Origin: a bacterium
GTDB taxonomy: Bacteria; Patescibacteriota; Microgenomatia; UBA1400; UBA12108
Direction: 5' to 3'
NCBI GenBank assembly: GCA_021788365.1
Contig: JAJYKS010000005.1
Span: 14,754-78,753, forward strand
DNA length: 64,000 bases
Shown: positions 3,814 to 57,303 of the stretch, piece by piece
Numbering within the stretch: the first letter of the stretch is position 1
Layout of the letters: each line of letters starts with the position of its first letter
The notes under the pieces: model-generated
Seen by the model: the letters and a program-made list of their open reading frames with translations, nothing else
What the model was told of the DNA's origin: nothing
Database searches by the model: none
Program-made: the position numbers and the translations under genes

Positions 3814-3884
3814 CAGGGGTGGAAGGAATCGAACCTTCGTTACTTCTTTTGGAGAGAAGAGTCCTACCTCTGAACGACACCCCT
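3814..3884 (-). tRNA. trnW: tRNA-Trp (anticodon CCA)
   Basis: Minus-strand sequence AGGGGTGTCGTTCAGAGGTAGGACTCTTCTCTCCAAAAGAAGTAACGAAGGTTCGATTCCTTCCACCCCTG folds as a cloverleaf. Acceptor AGGGGTG/CACCCCT, D-stem GTTC/GGAC with a GG-containing loop, anticodon stem CTTCT/AGAAG with loop CTCCAAA (U33, CCA, A37), T-arm GAAGG-TTCGATT-CCTTC. No encoded CCA. Confidence 0.85.
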
Positions 3885-5621: not shown

Positions 5622-5723
5622 CGTCGTATTCCCAAGTGAAAAACCGGTCTGTCTGCGACTGGTGTCGCAGCGACCTTGTGCTCGGACCAGTCCTGCGCAA
5701 TATTTTTCTTTGTGAACACGACT
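5622..5723. repeat. Copy 1 of ~100-nt structured intergenic element (candidate ncRNA/cis-RNA)
   Basis: Near-identical to 57202-57303 and homologous to 26949-27078. Contains nested inverted repeats (GGTC..CTGCGAC-tggtg-GTCGCAG..GACC; GGACcaGTCC) enclosed by an outer helix GTCGTATTC/GAACACGAC. Lies 23 nt upstream of the M50 protease start. Confidence 0.75.
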
Positions 5724-23334: not shown

Positions 23335-24387
23335 ATGTTAAACACGCTTCTCGGCTTTTTTTCACAGGACATGGGGATCGATCTCGGCACAGCAAACACG
23401 CTCGTATTTGTAAAAGGTAAGGGTATCCTCATCCGTGAGCCATCGTACGTTGCGCGCCACAAGCGCAGTGGTTCGGTCTTGGCAATTGGCTCGGAAGCAA
23501 AGCTCATGGCTGGGAAGACACCGGAGGCGATCGAGGCGATACGCCCCCTACGCGACGGAGTGATCGCCGATTTCGACGCTGCGGAGGCAATGCTCGACTA
23601 CTATATCAAACTAGTTCATCAACACAGTCCATGGGTCTCCAGAGTACCGCGACCGCGAGTCATCGTGGGGATCCCATCGGGTGTGACGGAAGTGGAACGG
23701 CGAGCGGTACAAGAGGCCGCAATCGAGGCCGGGGCGCGGGAGGCATATCTCGTGGAGGAGCCTATGGCGGCTGCAATCGGCGCGGGACTCCCCATCGATG
23801 AGCCACAGGGGCAGATGATCATCGATATTGGTGGTGGCACCACGGAGATTGCGGTGTTGTCCTTGGGGGGAATTGTTCTCAACAAATCGCTGCGAATCGC
23901 GGGAGATGAGCTGACTGAAGCGATTATCCATTTTGCTCGGGTGAAATATGGCCTGCTTTTGGGGGATGCCTCGGCGGAAGAGGTAAAAATAGCCGTGGGG
24001 AGCGCGACCGCCGATCCCTCCCACAAAGAATTACAAACGGTGGTACGCGGTCGAGACCTTGGGTCTGGACTACCCAAATCGCTCAAGTTCTCGGCTTCGG
24101 AAGTGCGGGAGGCGCTCTCGCCGACCCTGCAATCTATAACTCGTGCAGTAATGGACGTTCTCGAGGAGACACCGCCAGAGCTTGTGGCCGATATTCTTCA
24201 ACACGGGATAACTATGGCGGGCGGCGGCTCACTCATTCGTGGTATAGACAAGATGATTGCGGAGGAAACAAAGATGCCGGTCTGGATTACCGACGAGCCA
24301 ATGGCCGCAGTCGTGCGTGGGTGTGGAAAGCTATTGTCTGATGATCGCTTGCTGCGGAAAGTGAAGGTTGGGGCTCGCCTGCGGTAG
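23335..24387 (+). CDS. mreB: Rod-shape-determining protein MreB
   Basis: MLNTLLGFFSQDMGIDLGTANTLV..., IGGGTTEIAV and C-terminal actin-fold motifs. Start at 23335 gives the same N-terminal spacing as E. coli MreB; the ORF track starts at a TTG at 23287. Confidence 0.9.
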   Translation: MLNTLLGFFSQDMGIDLGTANTLVFVKGKGILIREPSYVARHKRSGSVLAIGSEAKLMAGKTPEAIEAIRPLRDGVIADFDAAEAMLDYYIKLVHQHSPWVSRVPRPRVIVGIPSGVTEVERRAVQEAAIEAGAREAYLVEEPMAAAIGAGLPIDEPQGQMIIDIGGGTTEIAVLSLGGIVLNKSLRIAGDELTEAIIHFARVKYGLLLGDASAEEVKIAVGSATADPSHKELQTVVRGRDLGSGLPKSLKFSASEVREALSPTLQSITRAVMDVLEETPPELVADILQHGITMAGGGSLIRGIDKMIAEETKMPVWITDEPMAAVVRGCGKLLSDDRLLRKVKVGARLR

Positions 24388-25435
24388 AATAGTGCTTGTG
24401 AAAACGTTCCAAAAACTAAAACAAAATCCAGCGTTGTGGCGGCCGTATTTCGTGCGGGAACAGGTTATCGATGCCACGCGCGCCTATTTGAAGGGTCGCG
24501 GGTTTCATGAGGTGGAGACGCCGCTTCTTTTGCCAACGCCCTCTACCGAGCCATTCCTCGAAGTTTTCCGAACTGAGCTCAAGAATGATGTTGGCCGCAC
24601 GTGGCCGGCGTTCCTCCCTACGAGTCCGGAATATGCGCTAAAGAAACTTCTTGCTGCGGGATCAGGTTCGATATTCGAGATCACCAAAAGCTTTAGGAAT
24701 GGTGAGGGGAAGAGCAGCCGGCACAACCCCGAGTTCACCATTCTTGAATGGTATGAGGTCGGTGGGGATTATATGAGTGTTGCAAAAGACATGGAAGCGC
24801 TTCTTTTGTATATCAATAGAAAAGTGCATGGGCGAGATACCACAACACTCCAATACCAGGGTAAAAAATACTCACTTGCGGTACCGTGGGAGAAAATCTC
24901 GGTTGCTGAGGCGTTCCAGAAGTACGCGGGGATCGATACGGAGACGATGCTCGATGGCAAACGGCTTATGGCCTACGGCCTACAACATGGATATCAAGTG
25001 CGAGAAGATACAACGTGGGAGGAAATCTGGAACCAGATCATGGCGAACGAGATAGAGCCACACCTTGGAGTTGGTGGGCCGACTATTTTGTACGACTATC
25101 CAGTGGCACAGGCAGTACTCTCGAGACATGCGGCCGACTCACGATTTGCCGAGCGGTGGGAGCTGTACCTCGCGGGGCTCGAACTCGCCAATTGTTATGG
25201 CGAACTCACCGATTCGGCGGAAGTGGAGCGGCGCAGCTGGCGTGACCTCGCAGCGCGGAAGCAGCTTGGTAAAACAAACTTTCCTATAGATGAAGATTTT
25301 ATCGAGGCGCTCAAAATGGGCATGCCTTCTTCTGGTGGAGTGGCGGTGGGGATGGACAGGCTTGCGATGCTCTTTGCCGATGTGACAACTATTGGGGATG
25401 TGCGATTTTTTCCAGCAGCAGAACTTTTTACCTAG
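24368..25435 (+). CDS. epmA: EF-P--(R)-beta-lysine ligase (EpmA/PoxA/GenX; class II LysRS paralog lacking anticodon-binding domain)
   Basis: TSPEYALKKLLAAGSGSIFEITKSFRNGEGKSSRHNPEFTILEWY, ERWELYLAGLELANCYGELTD and IEALKMGMPSSGGVAVGMDRLAML align with E. coli EpmA motifs 1-3. Start uncertain; 24368 overlaps the mreB stop by 20 nt. Confidence 0.85.
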   Translation: MGLACGRIVLVKTFQKLKQNPALWRPYFVREQVIDATRAYLKGRGFHEVETPLLLPTPSTEPFLEVFRTELKNDVGRTWPAFLPTSPEYALKKLLAAGSGSIFEITKSFRNGEGKSSRHNPEFTILEWYEVGGDYMSVAKDMEALLLYINRKVHGRDTTTLQYQGKKYSLAVPWEKISVAEAFQKYAGIDTETMLDGKRLMAYGLQHGYQVREDTTWEEIWNQIMANEIEPHLGVGGPTILYDYPVAQAVLSRHAADSRFAERWELYLAGLELANCYGELTDSAEVERRSWRDLAARKQLGKTNFPIDEDFIEALKMGMPSSGGVAVGMDRLAMLFADVTTIGDVRFFPAAELFT

Positions 25436-26330
25436 TGTATGGCGGGTCCGAGAGACCGCAGAGAAAATCAGGTTCGACACATCCGAGGGTGGGTGAGTTT
25501 GGGTGTTTTGCCGCCCATTCTTCGAGGCGTGTGTAGAGCCCGTCGATCAAGTCCTGCGGGTTGGAGTGAATATCTCCCAAGGCGCGTATGCCCTCACAAC
25601 ACGCGTTCACCGAGCCGTCGCTCATCAAAGATAATTCGTAGCAACCAAGGCTGCGCGGCGGGAAGACGGCTTTGTTTTCGGCGAGAGATTTTACTTGCGC
25701 TTTTTGGGGGAAGTCGAAACCAGCAATCGTTCCCACTTGGTTGGAGATGGGATGGTTTTCGAGATATGTCATGGGCTTCCGAGGATGGTAGGTAATGTCG
25801 GGGAGCGCCCCCAGTTCTTTGGTAAGCAGTGCCTCAAAGGCGGGGATAAGGGGTATATTCTCGTGCGTTGCGATTGAGTAAACCTCGAGGTGGAAGCCGA
25901 GACTCTGTGCTTTTTTGAGAAAGGTGAGGCTTTTCTCAAAGTTGCCGGCGCCGCGATTCTTGTCGTGGTATTCGGGTAGCCCGTCGAGGGAGACGATGAT
26001 GTTGACACTGTTTGGCGTCGTAAACTCTGCTAGTCGGTCGGCGGTGCCGTTGGTTATAACTTGGATGAAAAGCCCTTGGTCTGTTAGCTTGTTCACGAGG
26101 TTCGGGAAAACGCGGAGAAGCATCACCTCGCCCCCGCAAAAAGTGATCGAGGAGAGGCGATGGACTTTCTGGTATCGGCTCACAAAGTCGAGGATCGCCT
26201 CTGGAGTCAAAATATCACTGCTCTTGACAGTGTAGCAAATTTTGCAGCAGAGGTTGCAGCGCTCGAGGGGGGTCACGTAGAGATGATCGAGGACGGCTTC
26301 GATGTGTGACTGTATTGTGGGTGCGAGCAT
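25428..26330 (-). CDS. Radical SAM enzyme (N-terminal CxxxCxxC at residues ~25-32, Cys-rich C-terminal region); not KamA/EpmB-like
   Basis: From ATG 26330: MLAPTIQSHIEAVLDHLYVTPLERCNLCCKICY...FCGGEVMLL (radical-SAM core) with C-terminal cysteines (CYELS...NACCEG...GCVEPDFLCG). The ATG lies 1 nt after the efp stop (TAA-C-ATG on the minus strand). The ORF track extends to 26384. Confidence 0.7.
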   Translation of the reverse strand: MLAPTIQSHIEAVLDHLYVTPLERCNLCCKICYTVKSSDILTPEAILDFVSRYQKVHRLSSITFCGGEVMLLRVFPNLVNKLTDQGLFIQVITNGTADRLAEFTTPNSVNIIVSLDGLPEYHDKNRGAGNFEKSLTFLKKAQSLGFHLEVYSIATHENIPLIPAFEALLTKELGALPDITYHPRKPMTYLENHPISNQVGTIAGFDFPQKAQVKSLAENKAVFPPRSLGCYELSLMSDGSVNACCEGIRALGDIHSNPQDLIDGLYTRLEEWAAKHPNSPTLGCVEPDFLCGLSDPPYTR

Positions 26331-26331
26331 G

Positions 26332-26895
26332 TTAGGCGCGGCCGACGTAGGTATCAGTCTCGGTGTCGACGATAATTGTCTCACCTTGTTTTACAAAGAG
26401 GGGGGCCAAAACTTCGACACCTCCTTCGACGACAACCGTCTTCTTTGGTGCGTTTACCGTGTTGCCAGCAACGGCTTCCTGGGCTTCGATGACCTTTACC
26501 GTCACTTTCGGGGGGAAACGTACGCCCATGGCCTCACCCTCGTAGAAACTGAAGAACATCTTTGCTTCGGGGAGTAGCCATTTTTGTTTGCCGTCGAAAA
26601 TGGATGCCGGGATCTCGAATTGATCGTAGGTGCGGGGGTCCATAAAGTAATAGATGTCGCCGTCGGCGTAGAGGTACTGCAGCTCGCGTGTCTCGACGTC
26701 GACTACCTCGACGCTGTCGCTACTCTTGTAGGTGTAGTCATAGACGTTGCCGGTTTTGACGTTCTTGAGACGGGTGCGGGCGAAAGCAGATCCCTTGCCG
26801 GGAAAGTAGAACTCGCACTTGAGGACGGCGTGAGGTTGGTTTTTGTACAGCACGAACATGTCGCGCTTTAGTTGGTTGGCTTTAATGCTTGGCAT
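26332..26895 (-). CDS. efp: Elongation factor P
   Basis: 187 aa with three OB-like domains. Modification loop FPGKGSAFARTRLKN carries the Lys of the PGKG motif, i.e. the EpmA-type lysylation target. Confidence 0.95.
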   Translation of the reverse strand: MPSIKANQLKRDMFVLYKNQPHAVLKCEFYFPGKGSAFARTRLKNVKTGNVYDYTYKSSDSVEVVDVETRELQYLYADGDIYYFMDPRTYDQFEIPASIFDGKQKWLLPEAKMFFSFYEGEAMGVRFPPKVTVKVIEAQEAVAGNTVNAPKKTVVVEGGVEVLAPLFVKQGETIIVDTETDTYVGRA

Positions 26896-26948
26896 ACTGC
26901 GAGATTATACCGCTGGTGTACGAGTTTCGGCAATATTATCTACTTATC

Positions 26949-27078
26949 ACGGTTTACCAAATTCCCAAGTGAAAAACCGGTCTGTCTGCGCCTGCTGGCG
27001 CAGCGACCTTATGCTCGCCCAGCCGTTCGCGAGCAGCTGGGCTGCGCAATATTTTTATTGTGAATATTGGTAAACCGT
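26949..27078. repeat. Copy 2 of structured intergenic element (with extra internal helix and perfect 12-bp outer stem)
   Basis: Shares TTCCCAAGTGAAAAACCGGTCTGTCTGCG...GCGCAATATTTTT with copies 1 and 3. Hairpin 1 is CTGCGCC-tgct-GGCGCAG (compensated). Hairpin 2 is replaced by GCCCAGC-cgttcgcgagca-GCTGGGC. Outer stem ACGGTTTACCAA/TTGGTAAACCGT. Lies ~70 nt upstream of efp and overlaps the stop of gene 27078-27653. Confidence 0.75.
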
Positions 27079-57201: not shown

Positions 57202-57303
57202 CGCCGTATTCCCAAGTGAAAAACCGATCTGTCTGCGGCTGGTGCCGCAGCGATCTTGTGCTCGGATCAATCCTGCGCAATATTTTTCTTTGTGAACACG
57301 GCT
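57202..57303. repeat. Copy 3 of structured intergenic element
   Basis: ~90% identical to copy 1, with compensated changes in every helix: outer GCCGTATTC/GAACACGGC, GATC/GATC, CTGCGGC/GCCGCAG, GGATcaATCC. Lies ~50 nt upstream of the glyA start and is followed on the plus strand by CTTTTTT. Confidence 0.75.

What the first reader, a model, noticed from the sequence alone, without database searches (positions are those of the whole stretch)
24368..26895. efp translationally coupled to a non-KamA radical-SAM enzyme, with epmA convergent next door: candidate non-canonical EF-P modification pathway
The EF-P here has the PGKG loop lysine (FPGKGSAF), and a clear EpmA (beta-lysine ligase) is encoded adjacent. 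In the known pathway beta-lysine is made by EpmB, a KamA-family lysine 2,3-aminomutase whose CxxxCxxC lies ~120 residues in and is followed by C-R-x-C-x-R-R. Instead, the gene immediately downstream of efp (stop TAA, 1 nt, ATG; 26334-26328 on the minus strand) is a ~300-aa radical SAM protein. Its cluster motif sits at residues 25-32 (CNLCCKIC) after a short N-terminus. It has a GGE-type SAM motif (FCGGEVML) and a Cys-rich C-terminal region (CYELS..NACCEG..GCVEPDFLCG) reminiscent of auxiliary-cluster (SPASM/twitch-like) enzymes. Near-zero-spacer coupling strongly implies co-function with EF-P. This enzyme may replace EpmB, or may install a different modification such as C-hydroxylation or a crosslink. 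The structured element (copy 2) forms the operon leader.
Basis: partly seen in the sequence, partly recalled or inferred. Interest (0 to 1): 0.75.

Follow-up and report, generated by a model that had tools for sequence, protein, structure and literature searches.

The report
Radical SAM partner of EF-P ligase
A small iron-sulfur radical enzyme of unknown function, found only in one group of ultra-small uncultured bacteria, is almost always encoded next to the enzyme that decorates translation factor EF-P, so these bacteria probably modify EF-P in a way not yet described.

Summary
The genes are efp (26332-26895, -), a 300-aa radical SAM gene (25428-26330, -) starting 1 nt after the efp stop, and a convergent epmA (24398-25435, +). 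The radical SAM protein is not a KamA/EpmB aminomutase; by fold it is a compact SPASM/twitch-class enzyme. The conserved signal is different and stronger. In 116 of 137 informative loci from Microgenomates (CPR), the homolog sits directly upstream of an EpmA-family ligase on the same strand. efp is the only other recurrent functional neighbour. These coupled ligases nearly all carry Gly at the position that sets alpha- versus beta-lysine choice in E. coli EpmA (A298). The window's clade instead keeps a canonical Ala-type EpmA. True KamA-like aminomutases coexist with the module in at least three genomes, once directly adjacent, so "replaces EpmB" is disfavoured. Best reading: an extra radical tailoring enzyme in EpmA-dependent Lys34 modification, chemistry unknown. 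No paper describing it was found. The "structured leader" is a three-copy repeat lying upstream of the likely efp promoter. Interest 0.7.

The parts
26332..26895 (-). efp, elongation factor P, 187 aa, Lys34 at the tip of the PGKGSAF loop
   Evidence: TIGR00038 203 bits, above the cutoff of 186; Pfam EFP_N, EFP and Elong-fact-P_C. Alignment with E. coli EF-P places K34 in PGKG.
25428..26330 (-). 300-aa radical SAM enzyme of the SPASM/twitch structural class. CxxxCxxC at 25-32, GGE at 66-68, invariant YHPRKP at 181-186, invariant Cys at 65, 230, 244, 245, 284 and 291.
24398..25435 (+). epmA, EF-P lysine ligase of the canonical Ala-gate type, 345 aa. The longest ORF starts at TTG 24368 and would overlap mreB.
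   Evidence: TIGR00462 318 bits, above the cutoff of 287. Ala at the position of E. coli A298. Start chosen by homology to L084 and L085. 120 close homologs, all with Ala.
26328..26334 (-). efp stop / radical SAM start junction: TAA, C, ATG
   Evidence: Read directly. No Shine-Dalgarno-like sequence upstream, which fits termination-reinitiation. L092 has TAA + 6 nt + ATG.
25428..25435 (.). 8-nt overlap of the convergent 3' ends of the radical SAM gene and epmA
   Evidence: The same convergent overlap occurs in L084 (19 nt) and L085 (4 nt).
26904..26933 (-). sigma-70-like promoter candidate TTGCCG-18-TATAAT, whose -10 box ends 8 nt before the efp ATG, implying a leaderless or near-leaderless efp-rSAM transcript
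   Evidence: Consensus scan, 10 of 12 matches. Prediction only.

Best explanation
The gene downstream of efp encodes a compact radical SAM enzyme of the SPASM/twitch structural class. It is a dedicated partner of EpmA-family ligases in Microgenomates (CPR/Patescibacteria).

[quoted passage not shown] The proposed sequence is as follows. [quoted passage not shown] The radical SAM enzyme reductively cleaves SAM, abstracts a hydrogen atom, and introduces one further change.

I favour action on the protein-bound lysyl-Lys34 side chain, after ligation, over action on the free amino acid before ligation, at roughly 55:45. This would make it an oxygen-independent counterpart of the EpmC step.

Shown here: the identities of the three genes; the non-KamA, twitch-like nature of the enzyme; the tight conserved rSAM-epmA operon; the recurrent efp neighbourhood; and the coexistence of KamA-like genes.

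Inferred: that EF-P is the target, the order of steps, and the chemistry. Candidates include dehydrogenation, crosslinking, epimerisation or another H-abstraction-initiated change.
For: (1) Operon linkage. In 86 loci, an EpmA-like ORF is present in 72, with a median distance of 2 nt, and 69 of 74 are on the same strand. No other neighbour is conserved except efp. Pooling GTDB and JGI loci, 116 of 137 loci with room downstream have EpmA adjacent.

(2) efp neighbourhood. efp is an immediate neighbour in at least five different arrangements:
- efp>rSAM> <epmA
- <efp rSAM> <epmA
- <efp rSAM> epmA>
- rSAM>epmA>efp>
- the same with one gene intervening

(3) Persistence at one locus. At the conserved mreB-epmA-efp locus, relatives show three states: epmA_A-efp; epmA_A-rSAM-efp; and epmA_G-rSAM-efp. 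The enzyme therefore persists beside efp with either ligase type.

(5) KamA-like genes coexist with the module. They are adjacent in L014/L104, 5-10 kb away in L051 and L070, and on another contig of the same MAG, GCA_003176165.1.

(6) Most of the best structural neighbours modify proteins or peptides.

(7) The same rSAM clade works with an Ala-gate ligase (window clade) and a Gly-gate ligase (L086). This argues that its chemistry does not depend on the backbone of the donor amino acid.
Against: - No biochemical data exist.
- Genome-wide co-occurrence of the rSAM, KamA-like, Ala-type and Gly-type genes could not be computed. KamA coexistence rests on three genomes, and only one adjacency is beyond chance expectation.
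- 114 of 116 coupled ligases have Gly at the alpha/beta gate. That correlation would be natural if the enzyme changed the donor amino acid before ligation, or if alpha-lysine were used.
- The gene order rSAM then ligase, with translational coupling, also fits a 'make the donor, then ligate it' logic.
- The protein has no recognisable protein-binding domain.
- BlsE, viperin and MoaA, which act on small molecules, are equally good structural neighbours.
- About 15% of homologs are not next to epmA.
Confidence: 0.55

Rival explanations
1. EpmB replacement. The radical SAM enzyme makes the acyl donor itself, from lysine, for EpmA to load onto EF-P. The donor would be beta-lysine or another lysine isomer or derivative. 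The module rSAM + EpmA would then be a self-sufficient alternative to EpmB + EpmA.
Against: KamA-like genes coexist with the module in three genomes, once directly adjacent. KamA-like proteins are widespread in Microgenomates. A 2,3-amino shift without PLP has no precedent, and the fold is not LAM-like. The window clade pairs the enzyme with an unchanged Ala-gate EpmA that is 65-77% identical to those of relatives with no rSAM at the locus.
Confidence: 0.2
2. The rSAM + Gly-type EpmA-like pair acts on something other than EF-P, such as another protein or a lysine-derived metabolite. The efp neighbourhood in the window clade would then be secondary.
For: Gly-type ligases score below the TIGR00462 trusted cutoff (216-270 against 287 bits). 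They have a LysRS-like motif 3. efp is absent from about 90% of loci. Many Microgenomates also have a canonical Ala-type EpmA next to efp, so the Gly-type could be a paralog with another job.
Against: EpmA is still the best-scoring family for every Gly-type protein tested. ATP- and lysine-binding residues are conserved. efp is the only other recurrent functional neighbour (the more frequent glycosyltransferase-like and other groups sit kilobases away and look like local synteny). It occurs in several independent arrangements, including rSAM-epmA_G-efp operons, where the Gly-type occupies the place the Ala-type has in relatives. No locus held both ligase types.
Confidence: 0.12
3. No functional link. 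A housekeeping or orphan radical SAM gene merely sits beside translation genes in small, compact genomes.
For: CPR genomes are gene-dense. About 15% of homologs, including a uppP-linked subclade, are not next to epmA.
Against: 85% adjacency to one gene family across lineages whose other neighbours are all different. Adjacency is retained through inversions and ligase replacement. The family is narrow and strongly conserved, with 50 invariant columns in 116 sequences.
Confidence: 0.05

Closest known systems
EpmA/EpmB/EpmC pathway of E. coli and Salmonella (beta-lysylation and hydroxylation of EF-P Lys34)
   Same: Same target loop (PGKG, Lys34). Same ligase family: the window EpmA passes TIGR00462 and has the Ala298 gate. 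A KamA-family gene is present in at least some of these organisms. There is a third enzyme that probably adds a further change, as EpmC does.
   Different: The third enzyme is a radical SAM protein, not a YfcM-type hydroxylase. It is tightly operonic with the ligase, whereas EpmC is unlinked. Most coupled ligases carry Gly instead of Ala at the alpha/beta gate. The local KamA-like proteins score below every curated cutoff, including EpmB (154-158 against 369 bits).
SPASM/twitch radical SAM enzymes (SuiB, SkfB, anSME, BlsE, MoaA, viperin)
   Different: No RRE or leader-binding domain, and only 300 aa. The SPASM Pfam model does not recognise it (1 of 20 members, E 0.017). All NCBIfam family hits cover only the core and are far below cutoff. 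It has its own invariant YHPRKP and HPxSN motifs.
Bacillus subtilis 5-aminopentanolylation of EF-P Lys32 (YmfI, GsaB, YnbB; YaaO, YfkA, YwlG)
   Same: The modification is assembled stepwise on or for EF-P by several enzymes. The yfkA product, a radical SAM-type protein by my knowledge, influences modification level (PMC5885033).
   Different: No EpmA-type ligase is involved in Bacillus. YfkA was judged non-essential and probably acts in precursor supply. No YfkAB-family model is among the 25 best NCBIfam hits of the present enzyme.
PylB/PylC of pyrrolysine biosynthesis
   Same: A radical SAM enzyme acting on lysine followed by ATP-dependent ligation to the N-epsilon of a lysine. This is a chemical precedent for the 'make the donor' rival.

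Membership tests
KamA/EpmB lysine 2,3-aminomutase (for the 25428-26330 product) | Full-length match to KamA-family models (TIGR00238, TIGR03821) | tested here: not met
   None among the 25 best of 63 matched NCBIfam families shown. E. coli EpmB scores 534 and 528 bits on these models, and Microgenomates KamA-like proteins 146-158 bits. BLASTP against E. coli EpmB gives no alignment, best E 6.3.
KamA/EpmB lysine 2,3-aminomutase (for the 25428-26330 product) | Cluster motif CxxxCRxCxR about 120 residues from the N-terminus | tested here: not met
   The motif is CNLCCKIC at residues 25-32. The genuine KamA-like proteins of L014 and L051 have CAAYCRFCTRG and CATYCRFCTRG.
KamA/EpmB lysine 2,3-aminomutase (for the 25428-26330 product) | LAM-like fold | tested here: not met
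KamA/EpmB lysine 2,3-aminomutase (for the 25428-26330 product) | PLP-binding lysine | not testable with these tools
   There is no meaningful alignment to place the residue.
SPASM/twitch radical SAM enzymes | Radical SAM core with CxxxCxxC and a GGE SAM motif | tested here: met
   PF04055 at 50 bits; C25, C29, C32 and G66-G67-E68 are invariant in 116 sequences.
SPASM/twitch radical SAM enzymes | C-terminal Cys-rich extension with a CX9-15GX4C-type hairpin and further Cys ligands | tested here: inconclusive
   C230-x8-G239-x4-C244, then C245, C284 and C291, all invariant. This is close to, but not exactly, the published spacing (my knowledge). There are enough Cys for one auxiliary cluster (twitch-like), not two.
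SPASM/twitch radical SAM enzymes | Recognition by the SPASM domain model PF13186 | tested here: not met
   1 of 20 members at E 0.017; the window protein has no hit.
SPASM/twitch radical SAM enzymes | Closest folds are SPASM/twitch enzymes, including the C-terminal domain | tested here: met
SPASM/twitch radical SAM enzymes | Binds an auxiliary [4Fe-4S] cluster | not testable with these tools
   Requires spectroscopy or a crystal structure.
EpmA (EF-P lysine ligase), for 24398-25435 | Score above the curated cutoff of TIGR00462 | tested here: met
   318 bits against 287. L085 scores 329. Gly-type coupled ligases score 216-270 and do not pass.
EpmA (EF-P lysine ligase), for 24398-25435 | LysRS catalytic domain only, no anticodon-binding domain | tested here: met
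   345 aa, aligning to LysRS model positions 162-484 only.
EpmA (EF-P lysine ligase), for 24398-25435 | Ala at the backbone-selectivity gate (E. coli A298) | tested here: met
   The motif is GGVAVGMDRL. All 120 close homologs have Ala. The role of A298 is taken from bioRxiv 10.64898/2026.07.07.736966.
EpmA (EF-P lysine ligase), for 24398-25435 | Transfers (R)-beta-lysine to EF-P Lys34 | not testable with these tools
   Needs an enzyme assay.
EF-P, for 26332-26895 | Three-domain EF-P above the TIGR00038 cutoff, with Lys at the loop tip | tested here: met
   203 bits against 186; three Pfam domains; K34 in PGKG.

The most novel reading that the evidence does not exclude
Microgenomates install a chemically new modification on EF-P Lys34. 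A Gly-gate EpmA loads an alpha-type (or otherwise non-(R)-beta) lysine. The coupled twitch radical SAM enzyme then remodels the protein-bound adduct by, for example, epimerisation, dehydrogenation or a carbon-carbon or carbon-nitrogen crosslink. This would be a further class of EF-P activation, and the first radical SAM enzyme shown to act directly on a bacterial translation elongation factor.
Probability: 0.3. Interest if true: 0.85.

Novelty: new variant of a known kind. Interest (0 to 1): 0.7.

Why it matters
EF-P must usually be modified at one loop residue to rescue ribosomes stalled on polyproline. Only a few chemistries are known: beta-lysylation, rhamnosylation and 5-aminopentanolylation (PMC12856214, PMC11388002).

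A radical SAM enzyme hard-wired to the EpmA ligase in CPR bacteria would matter in four ways:
- It points to an undescribed, oxygen-independent step or a new adduct.
- It supplies a natural set of EpmA variants with the LysRS-like Gly gate. That residue is now being engineered to switch between alpha and beta amino acids (bioRxiv 10.64898/2026.07.07.736966).
- It assigns a testable function to an orphan radical SAM family.
- It shows how organisms with minimal genomes still invest three or four genes in tuning one translation factor.

Tried and rejected
(1) KamA/EpmB membership of the rSAM was rejected by HMMs, BLASTP and fold comparison.

(2) 'EpmB is absent from these organisms' was rejected. 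tblastn with E. coli EpmB found KamA-like genes in L014, L051 and L070. A database search showed many in Patescibacteria. None lies in the 64-kb window.

(3) I tried to prove genome-level co-occurrence by matching contig lengths between the hit lists for the rSAM, KamA-like and Ala-type EpmA proteins. No matches were found. This is uninformative, because each list is cut at 120 entries.

(4) A search for gene fusions of the rSAM with EpmA or EF-P found none. The longer homologs have upstream read-through or internal insertions only.

(5) Isoelectric points of the rSAM, EF-P and EpmA were not informative.

(6) I compared EF-P sequences from rSAM-containing loci and from relatives without the rSAM at this locus, looking for a second target residue. 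Nothing obvious emerged, and the loop is identical.

(7) Clade-specific substitutions in the window-type EpmA number six, and none is at the gate. They were judged lineage noise.

(8) Foldseek against AFDB was unavailable.

(9) An Rfam scan of the window found only one tRNA.

(10) Eight literature searches found no paper linking a radical SAM enzyme to EpmA or to EF-P in CPR (one further search failed with an error).
Full report
**1. What is in the window**

On the minus strand, efp (26332-26895) ends with TAA at 26334-26332. One base later (C, 26331), an ATG at 26330 opens a 300-codon ORF that runs to 25428.

EF-P is canonical. It scores 203 bits on TIGR00038 against a cutoff of 186, has all three Pfam domains, and carries Lys34 in FPGKGSAF.

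On the plus strand, a convergent epmA overlaps the 3' end of the ORF by 8 nt.
- It scores 318 bits on TIGR00462 against a cutoff of 287.
- It covers only the catalytic domain of LysRS.
- It has Ala at the position of E. coli A298.
- Its probable start is GTG 24398, by homology with L084 and L085.

The 300-aa product hits only the generic Radical_SAM Pfam model. It has CNLCCKIC at residues 25-32 and FCGGE at 64-68.

The surrounding genes are Wzy_C/TPR, MreB, a GH39-like protein and an M29 peptidase. Together with all the homologs, they place the organism in the Microgenomates group of Patescibacteria (CPR).

**2. The radical SAM protein is not an EpmB**

- BLASTP against E. coli EpmB gives no alignment.
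- No KamA-family model is among its best NCBIfam hits. E. coli EpmB scores 534 bits on TIGR03821.
- An AlphaFold2 model built on 116 homologs is confident, with pLDDT 94.5 and pTM 0.91.

In 116 homologs the following are invariant:
- the three cluster cysteines;
- C65;
- a C230-x8-G-x4-C244 hairpin motif, plus C245, C284 and C291;
- a family-specific YHPRKP motif at 181-186.

That is enough cysteine for one auxiliary cluster, so the protein is twitch-like. The SPASM Pfam model, however, does not recognise the domain: only 1 of 20 members hits, at E 0.017.

The family is narrow. In a library of 1.84 billion representative proteins, only 41 score at or below 1e-30. All named members are Microgenomates such as Gottesman-, Woese-, Roizman-, Pace-, Cerri- and Shapirobacteria.

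**3. The conserved partner is epmA, not efp**

I fetched 80 loci from GTDB species genomes and 80 from JGI metagenomes, plus several by exact protein look-up.

In the first 86 loci, an EpmA-like ORF is present in 72. The median distance from the radical SAM gene is 2 nt, and 69 of 74 are on the same strand. Apart from efp (9 loci), the other recurrent neighbours, e.g. a glycosyltransferase-like group in 16 loci, lie kilobases away and look like lineage-specific synteny.

Pooled over both collections, which share some contigs, 116 of 137 loci with at least 1 kb downstream have EpmA adjacent. efp lies in 16 loci.

efp appears in several arrangements:
- efp>rSAM> <epmA (window, and L092 with a 6-nt spacer)
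- <efp rSAM> <epmA (L085, L093)
- efp> <orf rSAM> <epmA (L084)
- <efp rSAM> epmA> (L086, L010, L013, L026, L034)
- rSAM>epmA>efp> (L042, L142, L145, L158)
- rSAM>epmA>, one gene, efp> (L099, L153)

The enzyme is nonetheless firmly tied to the EF-P modification machinery through the ligase. About 15% of homologs, mainly a subclade downstream of uppP, are not next to epmA.

**4. Two kinds of ligase**

In E. coli EpmA, residue A298 is a backbone-selectivity gate. Ala gives (R)-beta-lysine, and A298G switches the enzyme to alpha-lysine (bioRxiv 10.64898/2026.07.07.736966, read).

Of 71 EpmA-family sequences (the window's own plus those collected from the rSAM loci), 67 have Gly there, in a LysRS-like (Y/F)AG(I/V)G(L/I/M)G(I/V)DRL motif; two of these are the full-length LysRS of L042 and L074. 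ATP- and side-chain-binding residues are conserved. These Gly-type proteins still match EpmA best, but they fall below the trusted cutoff, at 216-270 bits.

The window, L084 and L085 carry an Ala-type EpmA.
- It is 70-77% identical within that group.
- It is only 30-40% identical to the Gly-type, and 33-36% identical to E. coli EpmA.
- It is widespread and highly conserved in Microgenomates: 120 database clusters are at least 65% identical, and all have Ala.

Relatives share the block Wzy-MreB-EpmA(Ala)-EF-P-x191-GH39-M29 with no radical SAM gene (L088-L090). The window clade has the radical SAM gene inserted between epmA(Ala) and efp. L086 instead has rSAM-epmA(Gly) in place of epmA(Ala) at the same locus. 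Its radical SAM protein is 70% identical to the window's, and its MreB is 86% identical.

A neighbour-joining tree, without support values, puts L086 at the base of the window clade.

The simplest history has two steps. First, an rSAM-epmA(Gly) cassette landed beside efp. Then one of the two ligases was lost. This implies that the radical SAM enzyme can work with either ligase type.

**5. KamA-like genes exist in these bacteria**

tblastn with E. coli EpmB against all fetched DNA found genuine KamA-family genes bearing the CxxxCRFCTRG motif:
- directly beside rSAM-epmA(Gly) in L014 (Gottesmanbacteria RBG_13_45_10; the same contig as L104);
- 5 kb away in L051;
- 10 kb away in L070.

A database search shows many more in Patescibacteria. 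One is in the Cerribacteria MAG GCA_003176165.1, whose rSAM-epmA(Gly)-efp cluster lies on another contig (L010 and L172).

No KamA-like gene lies in the 64-kb window. The rest of that genome could not be searched.

Elsewhere the KamA-like gene is unlinked, as in L087, the P0196 locus (gene table only, no DNA) and L172. The two non-adjacent cases are about what chance would give, so only the L014 adjacency carries weight. Even so, coexistence in three genomes argues against the idea that the enzyme generally replaces EpmB.

**6. Mechanism**

I conclude, with about 75% confidence, that the enzyme functions in EpmA-dependent modification of EF-P Lys34. With about 55% confidence, I conclude that it is an additional tailoring enzyme rather than the source of the acyl donor.

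Within that reading, I lean to action on the protein-bound adduct, for three reasons:
- The same enzyme clade serves ligases with opposite gate residues.
- Most of its nearest folds modify proteins or peptides.
- An oxygen-independent analogue of the EpmC step is plausible in these largely anaerobic organisms.

Three things weigh against this lean:
- The near-perfect correlation between coupling and a Gly gate.
- The rSAM-then-ligase gene order.
- Equally close small-molecule enzymes among the fold matches (BlsE, viperin, MoaA).

The chemistry is not determinable from sequence. The rivals are EpmB replacement (0.2), a non-EF-P target for the rSAM + Gly-type pair (0.12) and no functional link (0.05).

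**7. Comparison with what is known**

The system works like the EpmABC pathway, but with a different third enzyme and usually a different ligase gate. The enzyme is a structural member of the SPASM/twitch group but belongs to no curated family.

In B. subtilis, the yfkA product influences 5-aminopentanolylation levels but is not essential (PMC5885033). That is the only earlier hint I know of that a radical SAM-type gene is involved in EF-P modification, and it is not a close relative.

Reviews and surveys of EF-P modification mention neither this enzyme nor CPR bacteria (PMC12856214, PMC11388002). Eight completed full-text searches found nothing. I therefore rate it a new variant of a known kind.

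**8. The 'operon leader'**

The element upstream of efp (26961-27050) is one of three copies of a structured repeat of about 95 nt. The others are at 5628-5716 and 57208-57296. The copies show compensatory stem changes.

Each copy lies upstream of a minus-strand gene: an M50-like peptidase, efp and glyA. For efp, a promoter-like TTGCCG-18-TATAAT whose -10 box ends 8 nt before the ATG lies between the element and the gene. The element is therefore probably not in the mRNA, and the transcript may be leaderless. This rests on a consensus scan only.

**9. Limits**

- There are no experiments.
- Genome-wide co-occurrence could not be computed with the capped tools.
- The locus counts include related genomes and a few duplicates between collections.
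- The gate-residue inference transfers an E. coli result to proteins about 30% identical.

Noticed in passing
window 5628-5716, 26961-27050, 57208-57296: Three same-orientation copies of a structured repeat of about 95 nt. The hairpin CTGCG-N-CTGGTG-N-CGCAG has a different compensating pair in each copy, and a second stem changes from GGTC/GACC to GATC/GATC. Folding z-scores run from -2.7 to -4.5. Each copy lies 55-110 nt upstream of a minus-strand gene: an M50-like peptidase, efp and SHMT/glyA. No Rfam family matches.
   Followed up: partly
window 26896-26933: The sigma-70-like -10 box TATAAT ends 8 nt before the efp ATG, and no Shine-Dalgarno sequence is visible. efp, and with it the coupled radical SAM gene, may be expressed from a leaderless mRNA.
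   Followed up: no
L014 10809-11990; L051 4319-5410; L070 3-419; L087 6001-7092; L172 10001-11098: Microgenomates carry a divergent KamA-family radical SAM protein with a CxxxCRFCTRG motif. It scores below every curated cutoff (TIGR00238, EpmB, AblA) and slightly better on AblA-type than on EpmB models, so its product, (R)- or (S)-beta-lysine or something else, is open. In L087 it sits next to a SufBD gene.
   Followed up: partly
L091 1272-2153 (protein P0373) and P0371-P0397: A sister radical SAM family of about 290 aa. It shares the CCEG and C-terminal CxxC motifs but lacks YHPRKP and has WCGTGE instead of FCGGE. The one member whose context could be read is immediately downstream of a dCTP deaminase/dUTPase-family gene.
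   Followed up: partly
proteins P0361 (450 aa) and P0083 (351 aa), homologs of the radical SAM enzyme: These homologs carry one to three in-frame insertions of 40-60 low-complexity residues at loop positions of an otherwise conserved sequence. They may be intervening elements or assembly artefacts in CPR genes.
   Followed up: no
L033 887-2611: A single 574-codon ORF joins an undecaprenyl-diphosphatase (UppP)-like N-terminal part to the radical SAM homolog. It could be a real fusion or a frameshift. In that subclade uppP always precedes the radical SAM gene, and epmA is not adjacent.
   Followed up: no
L084 1114-2241: A 375-aa ORF with no Pfam match is inserted on the opposite strand between efp and the radical SAM gene, in the closest relative that has a long contig.
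   Followed up: no
window 24368-24397: The longest epmA ORF (TTG 24368) would overlap the end of mreB (24387) by 20 nt. Homologs start at the position of GTG 24398, which leaves a 10-nt gap.
   Followed up: yes
window 3814-3884: The only Rfam match in the 64-kb window at gathering threshold is a single tRNA gene on the minus strand.
   Followed up: no
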